A DNA stretch of 54,809 nt, taken from assembly GCA_039586365.1 (NCBI GenBank), contig JBDHKN010000027.1, positions 1 to 54,809 on the forward strand. The letters run 5' to 3'. Numbering within the stretch: position 1 is the first letter of the stretch; each line of letters begins with the position of its first letter. This stretch comes from Gemmatimonadota bacterium. GTDB taxonomy: Bacteria; Gemmatimonadota; Gemmatimonadetes; Gemmatimonadales; GWC2-71-9. Of this stretch, positions 1-9,000 are shown one piece after another. The position numbers were made by a program.

Positions 1-3000
1 CTTCGTAGAGATCTGGAAGACTGCAAGGGACGGGGGGATCAGACTGGCGGGATTCGCAGACCCCAACTATGAGTCGCTGGAGACGTTGTTGGCACACGTT
101 CTGTGGTGGGCCCGCGACTACATGATCTGGGCGTGCGACAGGCTCGGGGCACCGGATCCCGAGATCAGCTCGGTACCGGAACTGCACGCGATTGAGGTCG
201 AACTCGATGCCTACCTGGAGCATCTGTTGGAGCGCTGGAGGGCCCCGCTGTGTGACGTACCGGAAGAGCCGTTCTTCGGGCCGCAACACACTACGAGATG
301 GGGCACTGAGCTACCGATCGAAGCTCTACTGGAGCATGCTGTAGTGCATCCGATGCGACATCGCCTTCAGCTCCTCGAGATCCTGGAGCACGCGAATCAC
401 GCAGAGTGAACTGCGACTTGTGAGAGACAGGAGAGAACGTTGATAACCGGCTATCAGAAGCGAGCATACGACGAGTTCTACGACTCGGCACGGAACACCA
501 AGATTCTGGAGCCAAAGACCACGCTGATGCTCCATCTGGCCGCCGCCATGGCACTGGGCTGCTATCCCTGAATGGAGCACTACCTTGGCGTGGCCAAGGA
601 AGAGGGCATAACACAGCGCGAGTTGGGAGCCGTGCAGGCGGTGGTCATGGCCGTATCGGCGGGACGCATCAACGCGCAGGTGCGCGATGTGATGGCGAGA
701 GCGAGCCGGGGCTGAGGGGCCGCTGGCCCAAGAAGAGGTGAGGAGCACAAACATGAGCGCGCTGCTTACGGGTGTTCAGCCTGCAAGGGGGCATGAAGCG
801 GTGGCAGCACTGTACGGCCGCGCAAGAGCGCCGTGCGGCGGGTTGCTGTAGCATCACTTCGCTCCCAGCCTGCGGCTGCTGACAGTCAGCGACGGGAAGG
901 TAGGTTGGATATGCTGGCAACGATAATGCTCTATACTGGCTCGGTCGTCATCACTTTGTGGGGCATCGCGCACATTGTCCCAACCAAGTCGGTGATCGCA
1001 GGATTCGAGCCCTTGACCGCGGACAACCGCCGGATTCTGACCATGGAGTGGGTGTCCGAGGGGCTCACCCTCTGTTTCATCGGAGTGTTGGCTTTCTGCG
1101 TGACGGCCATGGTTCCACGCGATTCAGCTGGGTCGCTGCTCGCGTTGCGCGGATGTGCCGTAATGCTGCTGGTTATGGCCTTCTGGACGCTCGTCACCGG
1201 GGGGAGGACGTCTGTTGTGCAGTTCAAGGTATGTCCGATTGTGAAGACGGCTGTGGCCGTGTTGTTGCTGGCGGGCAGTGTGGTCTGAGGAGCTGGCGCG
1301 GTGGCGCTGGTTGGATCCGACGAGCCGCCAGCCTACCGCTGGATCATCGGACCACTTCCATATCGTACCGGTGAACTGGCCGCACGTTCTTCTTTGATTC
1401 TGCCTCGCTCGGTCTTGTGTCCGTACGAGGTCGTGGGCCAGTTAGTGGAGGTCACGGCGAACGGCTGGATCGCCAGAAGTCAGTGGGTATAGTCCTCCCG
1501 ATCCGCAGCCTTGCCGTTCACCAGAATCGCGCGCGAAAGCATGTCGTGCACGCCCCCGACCTCGATCTCCTCCTTGTGATGTTCCATTAGCTGCGTCAGC
1601 TGACGTTTGCAGTTGGAACAGGCGGTGGCCACGTATGTGGCGCCGGTGATGCGGATCTGCTCGAGCTTCTTCTTGCCTGATATCTCCATGCGGAAACCCT
1701 TGATGTCGTCCATTGCCGACAGCCCGCCCCCGCCTCCGCAACACCAGTTGTCCGACCGGTTGGGGTGCATCTCGCGGAAGTCAGCACAGGAGGCCTTGAG
1801 AATGGTACGTGGCTCCTCGGTGATGCCGCAGGAGCGGCCGAAGTTGCAGGGGTCATGATAAGTGACCGGTTGGTCATTCTTGGACTTGTCGAATTGCAGC
1901 TCACCGGCCTCGATGCGTTGGGCGGTCCACTGCATACAGTTGGTGATTTCGAATGGCAGGTCACCCCACCAGCCGGCCTTCTCCATCATCATCTTCATGA
2001 TCCGATGTGCGTGGCCGCACTCACCCATCAGCAAAACCTTGGCGCCGAGCTGCTCCGTTTCCTCGACGTACCGTCGGTTGTCGGCCTTCATGTCGGCGTC
2101 GTTGCCAGTGAAGAGCCCATAGTTGGCGCCGTCGAAGCACTTCGAGCTCATGGTCCACTTGTCTTCCATGCCGAGCACGTGGAACACCTTGGCGATTCCC
2201 ATGGTGGCTTCAGGATTGACCAGCACGTCACCCGACGGCGGCACGTAGAAGTAGTCGGCGCCCTTCTGATCGACTGGGATCTTGATGTCGGTGCCGTGCT
2301 CGTCCCGCATCTCCTCTTCCAGGAAGTCGATTGCGTCCCGGAAGGCGGCTTCGCCAGCCCCGTCCGTGTTGCCCGTCTCCAGCGAGATCTGAACCACTTT
2401 CGCCATGGTGTCCGGGGTCAGGCCGAGTTTGTCGACGATTGCTCGACCTTTGCGGGTGATGACCGAGTGGTCGATGCCAAAGGGACAGTAGACGGCGCAG
2501 CGACGGCAACCGGTGCACTCGTAGAATACTTCTCTCCACAGCATTATCTCGTCGGGGTCGAAGTCCTGAGCTCCGGCGAGACCGCCGAAGAGGCGGCCCG
2601 ACAAGGTGGTGTGCCCGTTGTAGACACGCCGTATCAAATCGGTCCTTTTGGCGGGATTGTACCGCGCCTCTGGCTTGCCGTAGTAGACGGGGCAGACGGA
2701 CGCGCACGTGCCGCACTTGACGCACATCTCCATGTACATCCGCATGGCTCTGGGGCCGTCCTTCATTGCCTTTACGGCGTCTACCACGGTCTGCTTGGTC
2801 TCCGCTGGTTGAAGCTCCTGCGAGTCTCCAGCGGGCGAGCCGGACACTGGCCTCTTCACGACAGTTTCACTGCGTTTGGCGTTCAACTCGATGTTGGACA
2901 TCGCGGTCTCCCCTATGTGACTGGGCGGTGTGACTCCGCCTCAATGCTTTCGAACCAGCTGGTGGGTTAAGAAGATCCCCCCGAAATGGAGGATCTTGCT

Positions 3001-6000: not shown

Positions 6001-9000
6001 CGGCGTTGCGCTGATGTCAGAGCTGCCGCAGAACCAGCTACCGACCCTGTGAGGATTGGTGACAGATGAGCGCCGTCGCCTTCAAAGGCAAGACATATGA
6101 GCTGGATGATCATGGCTTCTTGGACCCGCCGGATCAGTGGGACGACAACTTCGCCGAGGGAATGGCCAAGTTGGTGGGAGTCACGTCCGGCCTCACCGAC
6201 CGGCACTGGCACTTCATACTCTATCTCAGGCGCAAGTTCCTCGAGGAGCGCACTGTTCCAGTACTGGTGCTAGCCTGTGCCGACAATGGGTTGCGGCTGT
6301 CGGAGCTGCGCTCGCTCTTTCCCACTGGATACCACAGAGGGGCGTGCAAGATCGCCGGCATCAACTACCAGTTCATGTACGAGACCAACTACTGGCTCAC
6401 CTACGAGACTGCACCGCCGGCGAAGGCCCGCTACAAGCTGGACCAGCTCGGTTTCTTGCAGGATTTCGAGCAGTGGGACGAGGACTTCGTGGAGCTGGCC
6501 TTGGAACAGCGACAGCCTCCGACCGCTCCCGCAGCAAGGCACATGCAGGTCGTGCGGTACCTGCGTGACTACTACGCGGTTCACCGTACCATCCCGACCG
6601 TCTTTGAAACGTGCAGCGCCAACGAGTTGAACCTCGACGAACTGCGCTATCTGTTCCCCGCCGGATATCGCAGGGGCGCGTGCAGAATAGCAGGGCTACC
6701 CTTCTTCGGCTGAGTAGCTCACGTCGGTGACACACGCTCCATACCGAGTGGTCCGCGAGGTCCGTAACAAGCTGCCCACCGGACGCAAGGATGGTCGCAG
6801 AGCCGGCTGATGCAGTACCTGCAGGTCGCCACAACCCACCGTGTGTCTACATCACGCTCGCCATGGAAAACACAACGTGCCACACCGCGTCGGACCAGAA
6901 ATGGACCCCAATCGCCGTAACGAGGCCCTTACCCTATCGTTATGTGAGCTTAGCCACTTTCCGTTGGGACGCGAAGCGACGAGTTCAAAACCGCGGCTAA
7001 CGGTTGGTATAACTCCTGTCAGCCAGACGTGTCATGTGTGGTTTCGCAGGACACGTAGTCGTGAACACGCAGAGTTCGCCGGACACCAGTCAGCGATACC
7101 AAGAGGACTGCACAACGCTTAGCGCTCGTGCTACTCGTCTTCGCAGCACTGACGGTTGTCAGCGCCCAGGATATGGCGCAGCAGAGCGCTGATGAGCTGC
7201 TGGAGCGGTGTGCAGGTTGAGAAGTGCACTCGGTGCCGCTCCCGGCACCCAGGAGCGGACCGCCGATCGTGGTCGGGCGCGTCGAGGCGTCCGGATTCGA
7301 AACGAGGGATCCCAAAAACGAACAACCGGAAGGCAGGCCGTGGCCAACGGGAGTCTCCGAAGTTCCCTTGACACAATGGATTACATGACTATCCCCCATA
7401 GGCACGCAAACTGCTTATTGGCGGTTTGATCGATTGCATCCCGGAAGGGCGAAATGCGTGGACTCATTCCCAGCACCATTCTGATCTTCGGCCTTGGCTC
7501 GCGGCTGTTCCTGGGCGAGGGAACTGCAGGCATCCGGCAGATAGTGGATCGGGTTGTGATCGTTCACATGGCCCGCGACGACGCTGACCGCAGCTGTGGG
7601 GCGGACGGACTGTGCATCGCCCGCACAGTGCGGCCGGAGCTGGCACGCTGGCAGGTCACCCAGCGCCGCCAGCTGTCACTGCGACAACACGATCGGCTAT
7701 CTCATCGGGAACGGCGCGTGACAACACGATCGTCTATCTCATCGGGAACGGCGCGTTTGTCACGGGTCCGGCAAGCGGCAGACGGTTGTATTCCTACGGC
7801 AGCGGCAACCAGGACCGCAGACCCGGGGGTCTAGCATACTGGGTGAGGAGATTACGCGGGCCGCGCGCGGCTTGCGACAAAGATGATCGGCGCGTAGGGC
7901 ACTCCTGCCGCCAGGCAGGGAGCTCGTCAGGGAGGGGACGAGCAGGATCACGCCACGCCTGGCCCTACGCGCCAGGGCTGTCAGGGTAGCCCCGACTTGC
8001 CCCGAGCGTCATGCAGCGTTCGGGGCTTCGCTGTGTTGCACGGTCCAGGCCCCGTCGCCGAGCCAAGCCTCGCATCAACGACCTTGCCTAGACACGTTCT
8101 TCACGTCGCGCCTTGCTGGCTCGCAACGCGGCCTCCAGCGGTCACGACCGCAGGCAGATCGTCACCCACGGCTGAGGTCGTGTCGCAGGTGACATGCGCG
8201 GCACACTACGGCGCGTAGCTCGGGATCGGTGATTGCTGTGCGATTCATGTCGTGTGCGAAGCTGTGCCGCTGCTGAGGCTGAGCAGTGATGGTGCCGGCA
8301 AAGGTGCGTGCCCACTTCTGGCCAGGGTTCAAGCCTACCTTTACCTTAAGGGCAGCTGTCGCAAGCCGTCGCGACACCGTAGCCCCGGCCCGGAACCGCG
8401 ACTCAACTGAATATCCGGGGTTGCGGGGCCCGAATGCCGGACAGAGGATTGTCAGGGACCACTGGAGACGCCTAACTTGGACGAGTCAGGGAACAGTATC
8501 AGGACTGCTCTCGCCGATCACTACGCTATCAAGCATGAAATCGGTAGCGGAGGGATGGCGACGGTATACTTGGCTCGAGACCTCAAGCATCACCGCGAGG
8601 TCGCCGTGAAGGTGCTCAGGCCCGAGGTCGCATCACTGCTCGGAGTCGAGCGTTTTCTGCGCGAGATCAGGATAGCAGCCAACCTCCACCATCCTCACAT
8701 CCTGCCGCTCCACGACTCGGGAGAGGCCCGCGGCTTCCTGTACTACGTGATGCCGTACGTAGCGGGGCGGTCGTTACGTGACCGGTTGGTACGGGAGGGT
8801 TCCCTGCCCGTCACGGAAGTCGTGCGGATTCTGAGAGACGTGGTGGACGCGCTGTCACACGCTCACGAGCAGGGTGTAGTCCACCGCGACATCAAACCTG
8901 ACAATGTGATGCTTTCGGGTCGCCACGCTCTGGTGGCGGATTTCGGAATAGCCAAGGCTATGACGGAGGCGACAGGTAGGGATCGGCTGAAGACCACCGG

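What a model noticed while it worked through the whole genome (the two positions that open the first line are those of the whole stretch)
1480..6713. DsrC fused to a DNA-binding, 7-cysteine regulator, in a conserved module with a second DsrMK pair and a tandem-DsrC prot [...]
Besides its canonical dsr locus (C97), the genome has a five-gene module. g01329 (389 aa) has four parts: an N-terminal HTH_17/MerR DNA-binding domain; a family-less domain with 7 invariant cysteines (CWEY-x10-C-x2-C-x9-C-x16-C-x3-C-x2-C); a CheY-like receiver domain; and a C-terminal DsrC domain that keeps the penultimate 'CysA' (...LPRPPGCG) but has Tyr in place of CysB. It is followed in the same operon by DsrM- and DsrK-like genes (g01328, g01327). 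It is preceded divergently by g01330 (the same regulator without DsrC) and g01331 (two DsrC domains in tandem, both without CysA). The module is syntenic in several phyla of dsr-bearing bacteria. I read g01329 as a transcription factor whose D [...]
Evidence so far: Pfam on g01329: HTH_17 8-53, MerR 10-45, DsrC 296-388 (E 3e-23). g01331 has two DsrC stretches. Nothing matches residues 60-290 at E<=1 except a weak Response_reg hit on g01330. There are 537 homologues at E<=1e-3. About 40 clusters have the full HTH_17+MerR+DsrC architecture at 46-61% identity, and none has a functional name. In an alignment of 13 fusions and 7 DsrC-less forms, C77, C91, C94, C104, C121, C125 and C128 are invariant in 20 of 20. 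The tail FPCG(M/V)VKGAYRLAGLPRPPGC is kept in 12 of 13 fusions. For synteny, 78 loci from other genomes were fetched. By script on the tblastn table (73 loci with any hit), 27 have DsrM- and DsrK-like genes downstream on the same strand (DsrK-like 55 [...]
(Added by a program. Inside this text positions count along the whole contig: contig position 1 is position 1 of the stretch shown here. "Call 12" and the like, gene names such as g00115 and contig names such as C1 are that model's own, and its searches are not shown. The text may have been shortened before it was handed on; [...] marks where a part breaks off. The agent that wrote the report below was given it as the finding of a first reader that could run no searches.)

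Follow-up and report, generated by a model that had tools for sequence, protein, structure and literature searches.

The report
Regulated spare DsrC-DsrMK sulfur module
Many uncultured sulfate- or sulfite-respiring bacteria carry an apparently undescribed extra operon in which a cysteine-rich DNA-binding regulator controls an unusual three-cysteine version of the sulfur carrier DsrC and a second membrane reductase; the regulator-DsrC fusion seen here is a real but secondary joining of two normally separate genes.

Summary
The five-gene module is real and conserved, but the fusion is not its core. Among 78 related loci the regulator and the DsrC paralogue are separate genes in 26 and fused in 3. 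Fused forms are not one clade (p-AU 1e-12). 45 of 46 fusions keep a Met at the old start behind residues that fit a ribosome-binding site, so the gene probably still makes free DsrC*.

New here:
(1) DsrC* is a distinct family with the penultimate Cys, Tyr/Phe at CysB and two extra invariant Cys (120 of 120), additional to a canonical DsrC (21 of 23 genomes).
(2) A non-coding motif precedes the regulators, repeats at 9 bp as BldC operators do, holds in 17 of 20 held-out promoters, and ranks this intergenic region first in the genome.
(3) DsrM2/K2 keep all cofactor ligands.

Best reading: an autoregulated accessory DsrC*/DsrM2K2 thiol-redox branch. That tethered DsrC signals to the regulator is untested. 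The scan noted this regulator family before on other DNA (e1-4475394).

The parts
1480..2901 (-). g01327, DsrK-like (DsrK2): two [4Fe-4S] motifs, GECGH cysteine (C295), one complete five-Cys CCG motif (C352, C387, C388, C428, C431)
   Evidence: NCBIfam DsrK 355 bits, under cut-off 400, ahead of TmcB 223 and HmcF 203. Ligands kept in 22-23 of 23 module copies; module clade groups with the genome's canonical DsrK, support 0.997.
2941..3660 (-). g01328, DsrM-like diheme cytochrome b (DsrM2), NarI family
   Evidence: Pfam Nitrate_red_gam E 4e-19; NCBIfam DsrM 98 bits, under cut-off. H80, H90, H207, H225 in 28 of 28 copies and aligned to His of canonical DsrM.
3736..4905 (-). g01329, read-through fusion of regulator (residues 1-257) and DsrC* (277-389)
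   Evidence: Single open frame; 39 full-length fused relatives aligned; fused in DNA in L007, L011, L015.
3736..4077 (-). DsrC*: three-cysteine DsrC paralogue (C365, C370, penultimate C388; Tyr377 at the CysB position); probably also made on its own from M277
   Evidence: C365, C370, C388 in 120 of 120 stand-alone relatives, Tyr 118 / Phe 2 at CysB, typical length 105 aa; register fixed by alignment to solved DsrC structures.
4075..4090 (-). Retained internal translation start: purine-rich ribosome-binding-like run (4084-4090) and ATG of M277 (4075-4077)
   Evidence: Met at this linker position in 45 of 46 fused sequences; -7.1 kcal/mol with a recalled anti-SD, ranks 2-3 of 25 in-frame starts. 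Aligns with the first Met in 91 of 120 stand-alone DsrC*.
4078..4134 (-). 19-codon linker: the translated former tail and spacer between the two genes
   Evidence: 18-19 residues in the fusions; pLDDT <50; stop codon, overlap or other frame here in split loci.
4141..4491 (-). Atypical receiver (CheY-like) domain: keeps D188, lacks the second acidic-pocket residue and the Thr/Ser switch
   Evidence: Five-strand alpha/beta model, top Foldseek hits are receiver domains, E 5e-5. D188 in 208 of 211; T/S-x-D pocket; hydrophobic residues at 217-218. Canonical receiver signature recalled.
4522..4677 (-). Seven-cysteine domain (C77-W, C91, C94, C104, C121, C125, C128), no family assigned; candidate metal or Fe-S sensor
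   Evidence: Conservation. Profile finds 238 representatives; occurs 2-3 times behind a similar HTH in P0130, P0142, P0163, P0218, P0220.
4747..4884 (-). BldC/excisionase-type winged HTH (residues 8-53)
4906..5124 (.). Divergent promoter region (40% GC) with four candidate operator sites: 4917-4928(-), 4954-4965(+), 5024-5035(-), 5076-5087(-); sigma-70-like promoter 5038-5066(+); by eye a TTGACA at 4987-4982(-) with a weak -10 at 4965-4960
   Evidence: Top cluster of 803 in the genome with a matrix retrained without this region, score 46.7 against 25.5 for the next. Plus-strand promoter; the minus-strand one read and not called by the scan. GC.
5125..5919 (+). g01330, paralogous regulator (HTH, seven-Cys domain, receiver) without DsrC; 38% identical to g01329
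   Evidence: Forms its own clade with the divergent regulators of other module loci.
6066..6713 (+). g01331, tandem DsrC-like protein: each domain keeps CysB (C94, C206) and a helix Cys (C71, C183) and lacks the C-terminal CysA
   Evidence: Conserved in 22-23 of 23 tandem proteins. Second copy on contig C65.

Best explanation
The locus is an accessory, self-regulated branch of the Dsr system.

Shown from sequence: an operon regulator-dsrC*-dsrM2-dsrK2, usually with a tandem CysA-less DsrC nearby, in genomes that also have the canonical pathway; intact heme and Fe-S ligands; a conserved upstream motif with 9-bp spacing.

Inferred: (1) the BldC-type HTH binds that motif as direct repeats and controls the module's own promoters, most likely repressing, since sites overlap or follow the predicted -10; (2) the seven-Cys domain binds a metal or Fe-S cofactor and gates binding by redox or sulfide state; (3) DsrM2 passes quinol electrons to the non-cubane cluster of DsrK2, which reduces a disulfide or persulfide on DsrC*, where C388 on the flexible arm works with C365/C370 in place of the lost CysB; (4) g01329 arose by loss of the stop between regulator and dsrC*, a change that happened or reverted at least three times; it keeps the internal start, so it yields free DsrC* plus a tethered form, which may add feedback but is not needed by the module.
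For: Split 26, fused 3, no DsrC* 49 of 78 loci. DsrC* always directly follows a regulator, 29 of 29; close DsrM and DsrK both present in 22 of these 29. Fused/split needs 5 changes on the tree, at least 3 forced by strong branches; monophyly of fusions rejected, p-AU 1.3e-12. Internal Met in 45 of 46 with E/K-G/R-G/E before it. DsrC* signature in 120 of 120. Canonical DsrC-like hit of 64-93% identity in 21 of 23 module genomes, all 21 with CysB and CysA. dsrA over cut-off in 36 of 50 regulator-bearing genomes. In an unbiased phylum sample DsrC* was in 3 of 301 and dsrA in 7 of 301; all three DsrC* genomes have dsrA or dsrB. DsrK2/DsrM2 ligands match those described for DsrMK (PMC10861901, passages). 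Motif in 55 of 63 training regions, with 15 same-strand pairs at 9 bp and 5 at 18 bp; in 17 of 20 held-out regions, 28 sites against control mean 4.7, max 10; only 2 sites in 23 regions downstream of dsrK2. BldC binds 9-bp direct repeats (PMC5859096, passages).
Against: No experiment and no expression data. The window's own four sites are not 9 bp apart. The motif is not clustered at the canonical dsr locus (16 sites in C97:30-102 kb, shuffled matrices 8-28), so the regulon looks local. Some training sites are the reverse complement of the neighbouring regulator's start codon, and related promoters share ancestry. The first matrix included the window's region before retraining. DsrK2 and DsrM2 fall below the NCBIfam cut-offs. 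2 of 29 DsrC* loci (L032, L036) show no dsrM2K2 despite downstream sequence; 3 loci (L062, L069, L077) have regulator-MK without DsrC*. The region 371-389 of the model has pLDDT <50, so closeness of C388 to C365/C370 is not shown. Read-through seems conserved in the window's lineage, which suggests the tether matters there.
Confidence: 0.6

Rival explanations
1. One reading: the fusion is a one-component transcription factor whose DsrC domain is the sensor. Its persulfidation or oxidation state, set by DsrAB or DsrK2, switches DNA binding; in split loci the free DsrC* does the same in trans.
For: Fusion recurs in at least two lineages. In an 18-member all-fused group the linker shows 90 parsimony changes and no stop, against 3.6-4.6 expected, P 0.01-0.03. 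DsrC* always sits directly behind the regulator.
Against: The 18-member group was chosen after seeing the tree and has weak joint support (90/28). The regulator family already has its own Cys domain and occurs without DsrC* in 49 of 78 loci. The internal start is retained. No contact between the domains is shown by the model (pTM 0.49).
Confidence: 0.25
2. Split-DsrC model: the two catalytic cysteines of DsrC are divided between DsrC* (CysA only) and the tandem protein (CysB only); they form an intermolecular di- or trisulfide that DsrM2K2 reduces.
For: Complementary cysteine pattern. Tandem gene within the locus in 19 of 29 DsrC* loci and in 19 of 23 genomes, in varying positions.
Against: No tandem protein found in 4 of 23 genomes (genomes may be incomplete). 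DsrC* has two extra invariant cysteines of its own. This genome has a second tandem copy on C65 with no module around it.
Confidence: 0.12
3. DsrC* is a TusE-like sulfur relay for biosynthesis (tRNA thiolation, or loading the regulator's or DsrK2's Fe-S clusters), not a respiratory or redox carrier.
For: CysA without CysB is the TusE pattern (recalled); automatic JGI names say TusE.
Against: TusE model score 40 against cut-off 191; closer to DsrC structures than to 7syb. No tusABCD or mnmA family among the 21 neighbour proteins scanned from clusters shared by 3 or more loci. Several genomes have a separate TusE-like protein with a different tail (L109, L113, L114, L116).
Confidence: 0.08

Closest known systems
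DsrC with the DsrMK(JOP) complex (PMC10861901; PDB 1sau, 2v4j, 1ji8)
   Same: DsrC fold and penultimate Cys; partner genes with four heme His, two [4Fe-4S] motifs, GECGH and one CCG motif.
   Different: CysB is Tyr/Phe; two extra invariant Cys; no dsrJOP; additional to the canonical copies; headed by a regulator gene.
Second dsrMK copies (dsrM2/dsrK2 in PMC6018796 preprint 10.1101/197269; MK-only clade in PMC10504309)
   Same: A DsrMK pair without JOP in genomes that also have DsrMKJOP.
   Different: The passages read mention no dedicated DsrC paralogue, tandem DsrC or regulator. I did not place DsrK2 against their reference sequences; at least four other DsrK-like clades occur in these genomes.
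Single-cysteine DsrC of Desulfurella amilsii (PMC6378623; motif in PMC8477390)
   Same: One catalytic-arm cysteine, encoded with dsrMK and no dsrJOP.
   Different: There it is encoded with dsrAB. DsrC* differs from the DiSCo motif at 2-3 positions (limit 1) in all 102 scored and has C365/C370.
BldC of Streptomyces (PMC5859096; PDB 6amk, 6ama)
   Same: Winged HTH sequence match; candidate operator with 9-bp direct-repeat spacing.
   Different: BldC is a 68-residue stand-alone domain; here it carries a seven-Cys domain, an atypical receiver and sometimes DsrC*; the repeat sequence differs.
[quoted passage not shown] 2014, not read)
   Same: g01331 lacks CysA in both domains and lies beside a regulator.
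   Different: Tandem two-domain form with four conserved cysteines.
NCBIfam NF045718 two-CW domain
   Same: By eye: starts with C-W-E and ends with C-x2-C-x-aromatic-aromatic.
   Different: No HMM hit in 33 members or in the own genome; profile comparison probability 12.8% over 14 columns.

Membership tests
Canonical DsrC | Penultimate CysA | tested here: met
   C388 in 120 of 120 stand-alone relatives and 71 of 72 fused or locus-derived copies, one cut at a contig end.
Canonical DsrC | CysB, 11 residues before CysA | tested here: not met
   Tyr 118, Phe 2 of 120; register.
Canonical DsrC | Forms a trisulfide with DsrAB and is reduced by DsrMK | not testable with these tools
   Needs biochemistry.
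Desulfurella-type single-Cys DsrC (DiSCo) | C-terminal motif with at most one mismatch | tested here: not met
   3 mismatches in g01329; 2 or 3 in all 102 relatives with a 10-residue tail; rule.
TusE | NCBIfam NF008562 cut-off | tested here: not met
   40.4 bits against 191.
DsrK | Two [4Fe-4S] motifs, GECGH cysteine, one five-Cys CCG motif | tested here: met
   22-23 of 23 module copies; features. HmcF and TmcB share them.
DsrK | NCBIfam NF045796 cut-off | tested here: not met
   355 against 400 bits; still the best family.
DsrK | Phylogenetic position with DsrK rather than HmcF/TmcB | tested here: inconclusive
   Sister to the genome's canonical DsrK, support 0.997, but FastTree with one canonical sequence on a long branch and no characterised references.
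DsrM | Four heme-ligating His | tested here: met
   28 of 28. NCBIfam cut-off not reached, 98 against 300.
BldC-like regulators | Winged HTH similar to BldC | tested here: met
   PDB 6amk/6ama hits; HTH_17 above Pfam cut-off; NF033787 hit but under its cut-off, 43 against 77.
BldC-like regulators | Binds 9-bp direct repeats head to tail | tested here: inconclusive
   Motif pairs at 9 and 18 bp in relatives' promoters; not tandem in the window; binding itself untested.
Canonical response-regulator receiver | Phospho-acceptor Asp, acidic pocket, Thr/Ser switch, Lys (signature recalled) | tested here: not met
   Asp 208 of 211, Lys 152 of 211, one pocket Asp, no Thr/Ser at 217-218. Fold is receiver-like.
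Two-CW domain (NF045718) | HMM or profile match | tested here: inconclusive
   Not among the 25 of 34 families shown for 33 members; none in own genome or in 15 distant members; HHalign 12.8%, but against a profile of only 2 sequences.

The most novel reading that the evidence does not exclude
These bacteria run a second, chemically different DsrC cycle. A three-cysteine DsrC* (or DsrC* paired with the CysB-only tandem protein) is the dedicated substrate of DsrM2K2, and its sulfur or redox state is read directly by a BldC-type transcription factor with a new seven-cysteine cofactor domain. Fused genes make both the free carrier and the carrier-tethered regulator from one reading frame. This would be a direct link from DsrC state to transcription, possibly helping DsrL-bearing organisms adjust the direction or rate of sulfur metabolism.
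Probability: 0.2. Interest if true: 0.85.

Novelty: new variant of a known kind. Interest (0 to 1): 0.62.

Why it matters
DsrC is the hub of dissimilatory sulfur metabolism. Why genomes carry extra dsrMK and dsrC-like genes, and whether DsrC-family proteins regulate transcription, are open points in the passages I read and in my recall of the field. This module gives a concrete test case: a defined DsrC subfamily with new cysteines, its likely reductase, a likely regulator with an unassigned cysteine domain, and a predicted operator, so binding and redox assays can be set up directly. It also warns annotators: these genes are auto-named TusE or excisionase, and apparent domain fusions can be read-throughs that keep an internal start.

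Tried and rejected
Complex prediction of regulator (5-258) with DsrC* (277-389): no verdict, score 0.00; not evidence either way.
RNA runs: no RNA holder listed.
Fold of the Cys domain alone: mean pLDDT 58, best Z 2.1, uninformative. Atlas search of the domain gave no usable hit; the whole regulator hit two unnamed clusters of 408 and 72 members.
Two-CW assignment: not supported, test weak.
Artefact or alternative genetic code for the fusion: rejected; the frame is open under table 11 in the window and three other genomes, and split loci end in TGA, TAG or TAA in various frames.
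Global dsr regulon: not supported. Motif between regulator and dsrC* (1 of 7 regions) or before the tandem gene (0 of 22): not enriched.
Motif as an alternative-sigma -10 box: judged unlikely by reasoning, since it occurs on both strands and in tandem.
No genome 16S anti-SD was identified; a recalled one was used.
Literature: searches found no description of this module. Pereira et al. 2011 was not held and Venceslau et al. 2014 was not read; these and unseen supplements of PMC8477390 and PMC10504309 could mention such genes.

Full report
OBSERVATION. The five genes, their coordinates and Pfam hits are as described. The genome has a complete reductive set on C97: sat, aprBA, qmoABC, a canonical DsrC with both cysteines, dsrMKJOP, dsrAB, a DsrL-like flavoprotein and a DsrN-like amidase (my labels for the last two), plus three more DsrK/HmcF/TmcB-like genes; C65 has a second tandem DsrC. 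The closest related loci are Gemmatimonadota; others are Planctomycetota, Acidobacteriota, Elusimicrobiota, Latescibacterota, Myxococcota and Fibrobacterota genome bins.

THE FUSION IS A SECONDARY STATE. Of 78 loci from species-representative genomes, 3 are fused, 26 have the regulator followed directly by a separate DsrC gene with the same tail, and 49 have no such gene. In split loci the stop is TGA, TAG or TAA, in frame or not, and in four the two frames overlap. A search with the DsrC part alone returned 448 proteins of 62-198 aa at E<=1e-20; the best 120 are stand-alone, mostly 105-111 aa; some on short contigs could be cut fusions. On a tree of the regulator part (42 fused, 26 split, 3 others), the label changes 5 times, at least 3 forced by strong branches, and none of 200 bootstrap trees had one change. 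An AU test on 68 rows rejects a single fused clade, p 1.3e-12. The midpoint root falls among split forms, which is for drawing only. A wider FastTree of 211 of 218 sequences (7 dropped as too short) shows the same mixing.

THE FUSION KEEPS AN INTERNAL START. In 46 fused sequences (some near-duplicates) a Met lies 18-19 residues after the end of the receiver domain: 42 by automatic anchor, 3 more by inspection; only P0008 lacks it. The residues 3-5 places before it are mostly E/K, G/R and G/E, as expected of a translated purine-rich ribosome-binding site. In the four fused genes with DNA the site pairs at -7.1 to -7.5 kcal/mol with a recalled anti-SD and ranks 2nd to 4th of 18-30 in-frame starts. 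This Met aligns with the first residue in 91 of 120 stand-alone proteins. In an 18-member fused group the Met column changes once, against 90 changes over the 19 linker columns; no stop was seen where 3.6-4.6 are expected, P 0.01-0.03. The group was picked after the tree and has weak support, so this only suggests that read-through is maintained. Inference: the gene makes both a free and a tethered DsrC*.

DsrC* IS ITS OWN SUBFAMILY. Aligned to solved DsrC structures, C388 is CysA and Y377 sits at CysB. C365 and C370 are new. All three cysteines are present in 120 of 120 top relatives that were not selected on this motif; position 377 is Tyr in 118 and Phe in 2. It fails the DiSCo single-Cys motif and the TusE cut-off. 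Of 23 module genomes, chosen mainly among those with dsrA/B hits, 21 also have a canonical DsrC with both cysteines. The tandem protein is the mirror image: CysB in both domains, no CysA, in 22-23 of 23 copies.

DsrM2 AND DsrK2 LOOK FUNCTIONAL. Four His are invariant in 28 of 28 DsrM2. Both ferredoxin motifs, the GECGH cysteine and the five CCG cysteines are kept in 22-23 of 23 DsrK2, and the clade groups with canonical DsrK rather than with the HmcF/TmcB-like copies. These are the features given for DsrMK catalysis in PMC10861901 (passages). Both score under the NCBIfam cut-offs. Both genes are present in 22 of 29 DsrC* loci; five of the rest end at or near the contig edge, and two (L032, L036) lack them.

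ASSOCIATION WITH DSR. dsrA passes the cut-off in 36 of 50 genomes (50 of the 78 loci were submitted). Of five DsrC* genomes without dsrA that I rechecked, one has dsrB and three have a canonical DsrK over cut-off. In 301 genomes drawn evenly from the phylum, dsrA was found in 7 and DsrC* in 3, all three with dsrA or dsrB, so the module is accessory. Neighbours shared by several regulator loci include sat, a DsrN-like amidase, dsrB, a DsrL-like protein and HmcB/C/E-like genes; in some genomes the module shares a contig with dsrAB.

THE REGULATOR. The HTH matches BldC. The model gives a confident HTH and receiver fold and a poorly resolved Cys domain and linker. The receiver keeps its Asp but lacks part of the usual signature. 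The seven-Cys domain is nearly invariant in 211 sequences, has 238 representatives in the 50% library, and occurs two or three times behind similar HTHs in other proteins, so it is a repeatable module. No family or fold was assigned.

A CANDIDATE OPERATOR. Upstream of the regulators a motif with consensus ATCCATAAAACC is over-represented: 55 of 63 regions and 140 sites against a control mean of 16 (inflated by training). Same-strand spacings up to 40 bp are 9 bp in 15 cases, 18 bp in 5, anything else in 7. In 20 regulator promoters not used for training, 17 have sites (28 against mean 4.7, max 10), again with 9-bp pairs (4); regions behind dsrK2, before the tandem gene or between regulator and dsrC* are at background. 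Retrained without the window, the matrix ranks 4917-5087 first among 803 clusters in the genome. BldC binds 9-bp direct repeats head to tail (PMC5859096, passages). The canonical dsr locus is not enriched. In the window, sites overlap a by-eye -10 and follow both predicted promoters, which suggests autorepression. Binding is inferred, not shown.

MECHANISM AND ODDS. Real accessory DsrC/DsrMK module: about 0.9. Regulator binds this motif: about 0.75. DsrC* as the substrate of DsrM2K2: about 0.6. Tethered DsrC as a signal input: about 0.25-0.3. These are my judgements. The complex prediction gave no verdict and no RNA run was listed; neither counts either way.

LITERATURE. Seen as passages only: PMC8477390, 10.1101/197269 (31), PMC6378623, PMC5859096, PMC10861901, PMC10504309, PMC10591310. 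Seen as search listings only: the other papers. No supplements were read. Second dsrMK copies, a single-Cys DsrC and the DsrC/TusE/RspA family are known; searches found no account of this operon, of DsrC* or of the regulator. Pereira 2011 was not held and Venceslau 2014 is recalled only. I had reached and tested the two-CW comparison before reading it.

VERDICT. Observation confirmed; interpretation partly supported. The interest lies less in the fusion than in an undescribed DsrC subfamily with its own reductase and a regulator with a predicted operator. New variant of a known kind; interest 0.62.

Noticed in passing
L005:7878-8555 (G000:C65:9877-10554): Second tandem DsrC-like gene, 40% identical to g01331, followed by a triple Rid-domain protein; its second domain has Val at CysB; no regulator or dsrMK detected nearby.
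   Followed up: partly
G000:C97:96269-96280: A single strong motif-like site upstream of the DsrK-like/TmcC/HmcB/HmcC operon, identical to sites in two held-out Acidobacteria regulator promoters (L037, L044); possibly a second target.
   Followed up: partly
L003:10229-13300 (C97): HmcF/TmcB-like protein with a C-terminal receiver domain, beside an HmcE-like gene and a macrodomain (ADP-ribose-binding) gene; the macrodomain and HmcE-like clusters each recur in 14 regulator loci.
   Followed up: no
L109, L113, L114, L116: A further single-domain DsrC/TusE-like class (CysA only, Ser/Ala-type residue at CysB, different tail) in several module genomes.
   Followed up: no
P0130, P0142, P0163, P0218, P0220: HTH proteins with two or three tandem copies of the seven-Cys domain and no receiver.
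   Followed up: partly
L071:10505-11083 (cluster also in L062, L073, L084): Rrf2-family regulator directly behind dsrK2 in L071; the cluster occurs in four module loci.
   Followed up: no
P0078: Fused-type protein whose tail turns into DsrK-like sequence; looks like a misassembly or deletion chimera; left out of fused counts.
   Followed up: no
window:13849-16149 (-): 766-aa long coiled-coil protein with no specific family.
   Followed up: no
window:17650-23590: DsbD, AhpC/TSA redoxin and MsrB (SelR) genes: a thiol-redox cluster about 11 kb from the module; no link tested.
   Followed up: no
window:44815-53916: Polyphosphate kinase, histidine phosphatase, DUF4956 and CHAD genes: ordinary-looking polyphosphate cluster.
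   Followed up: no
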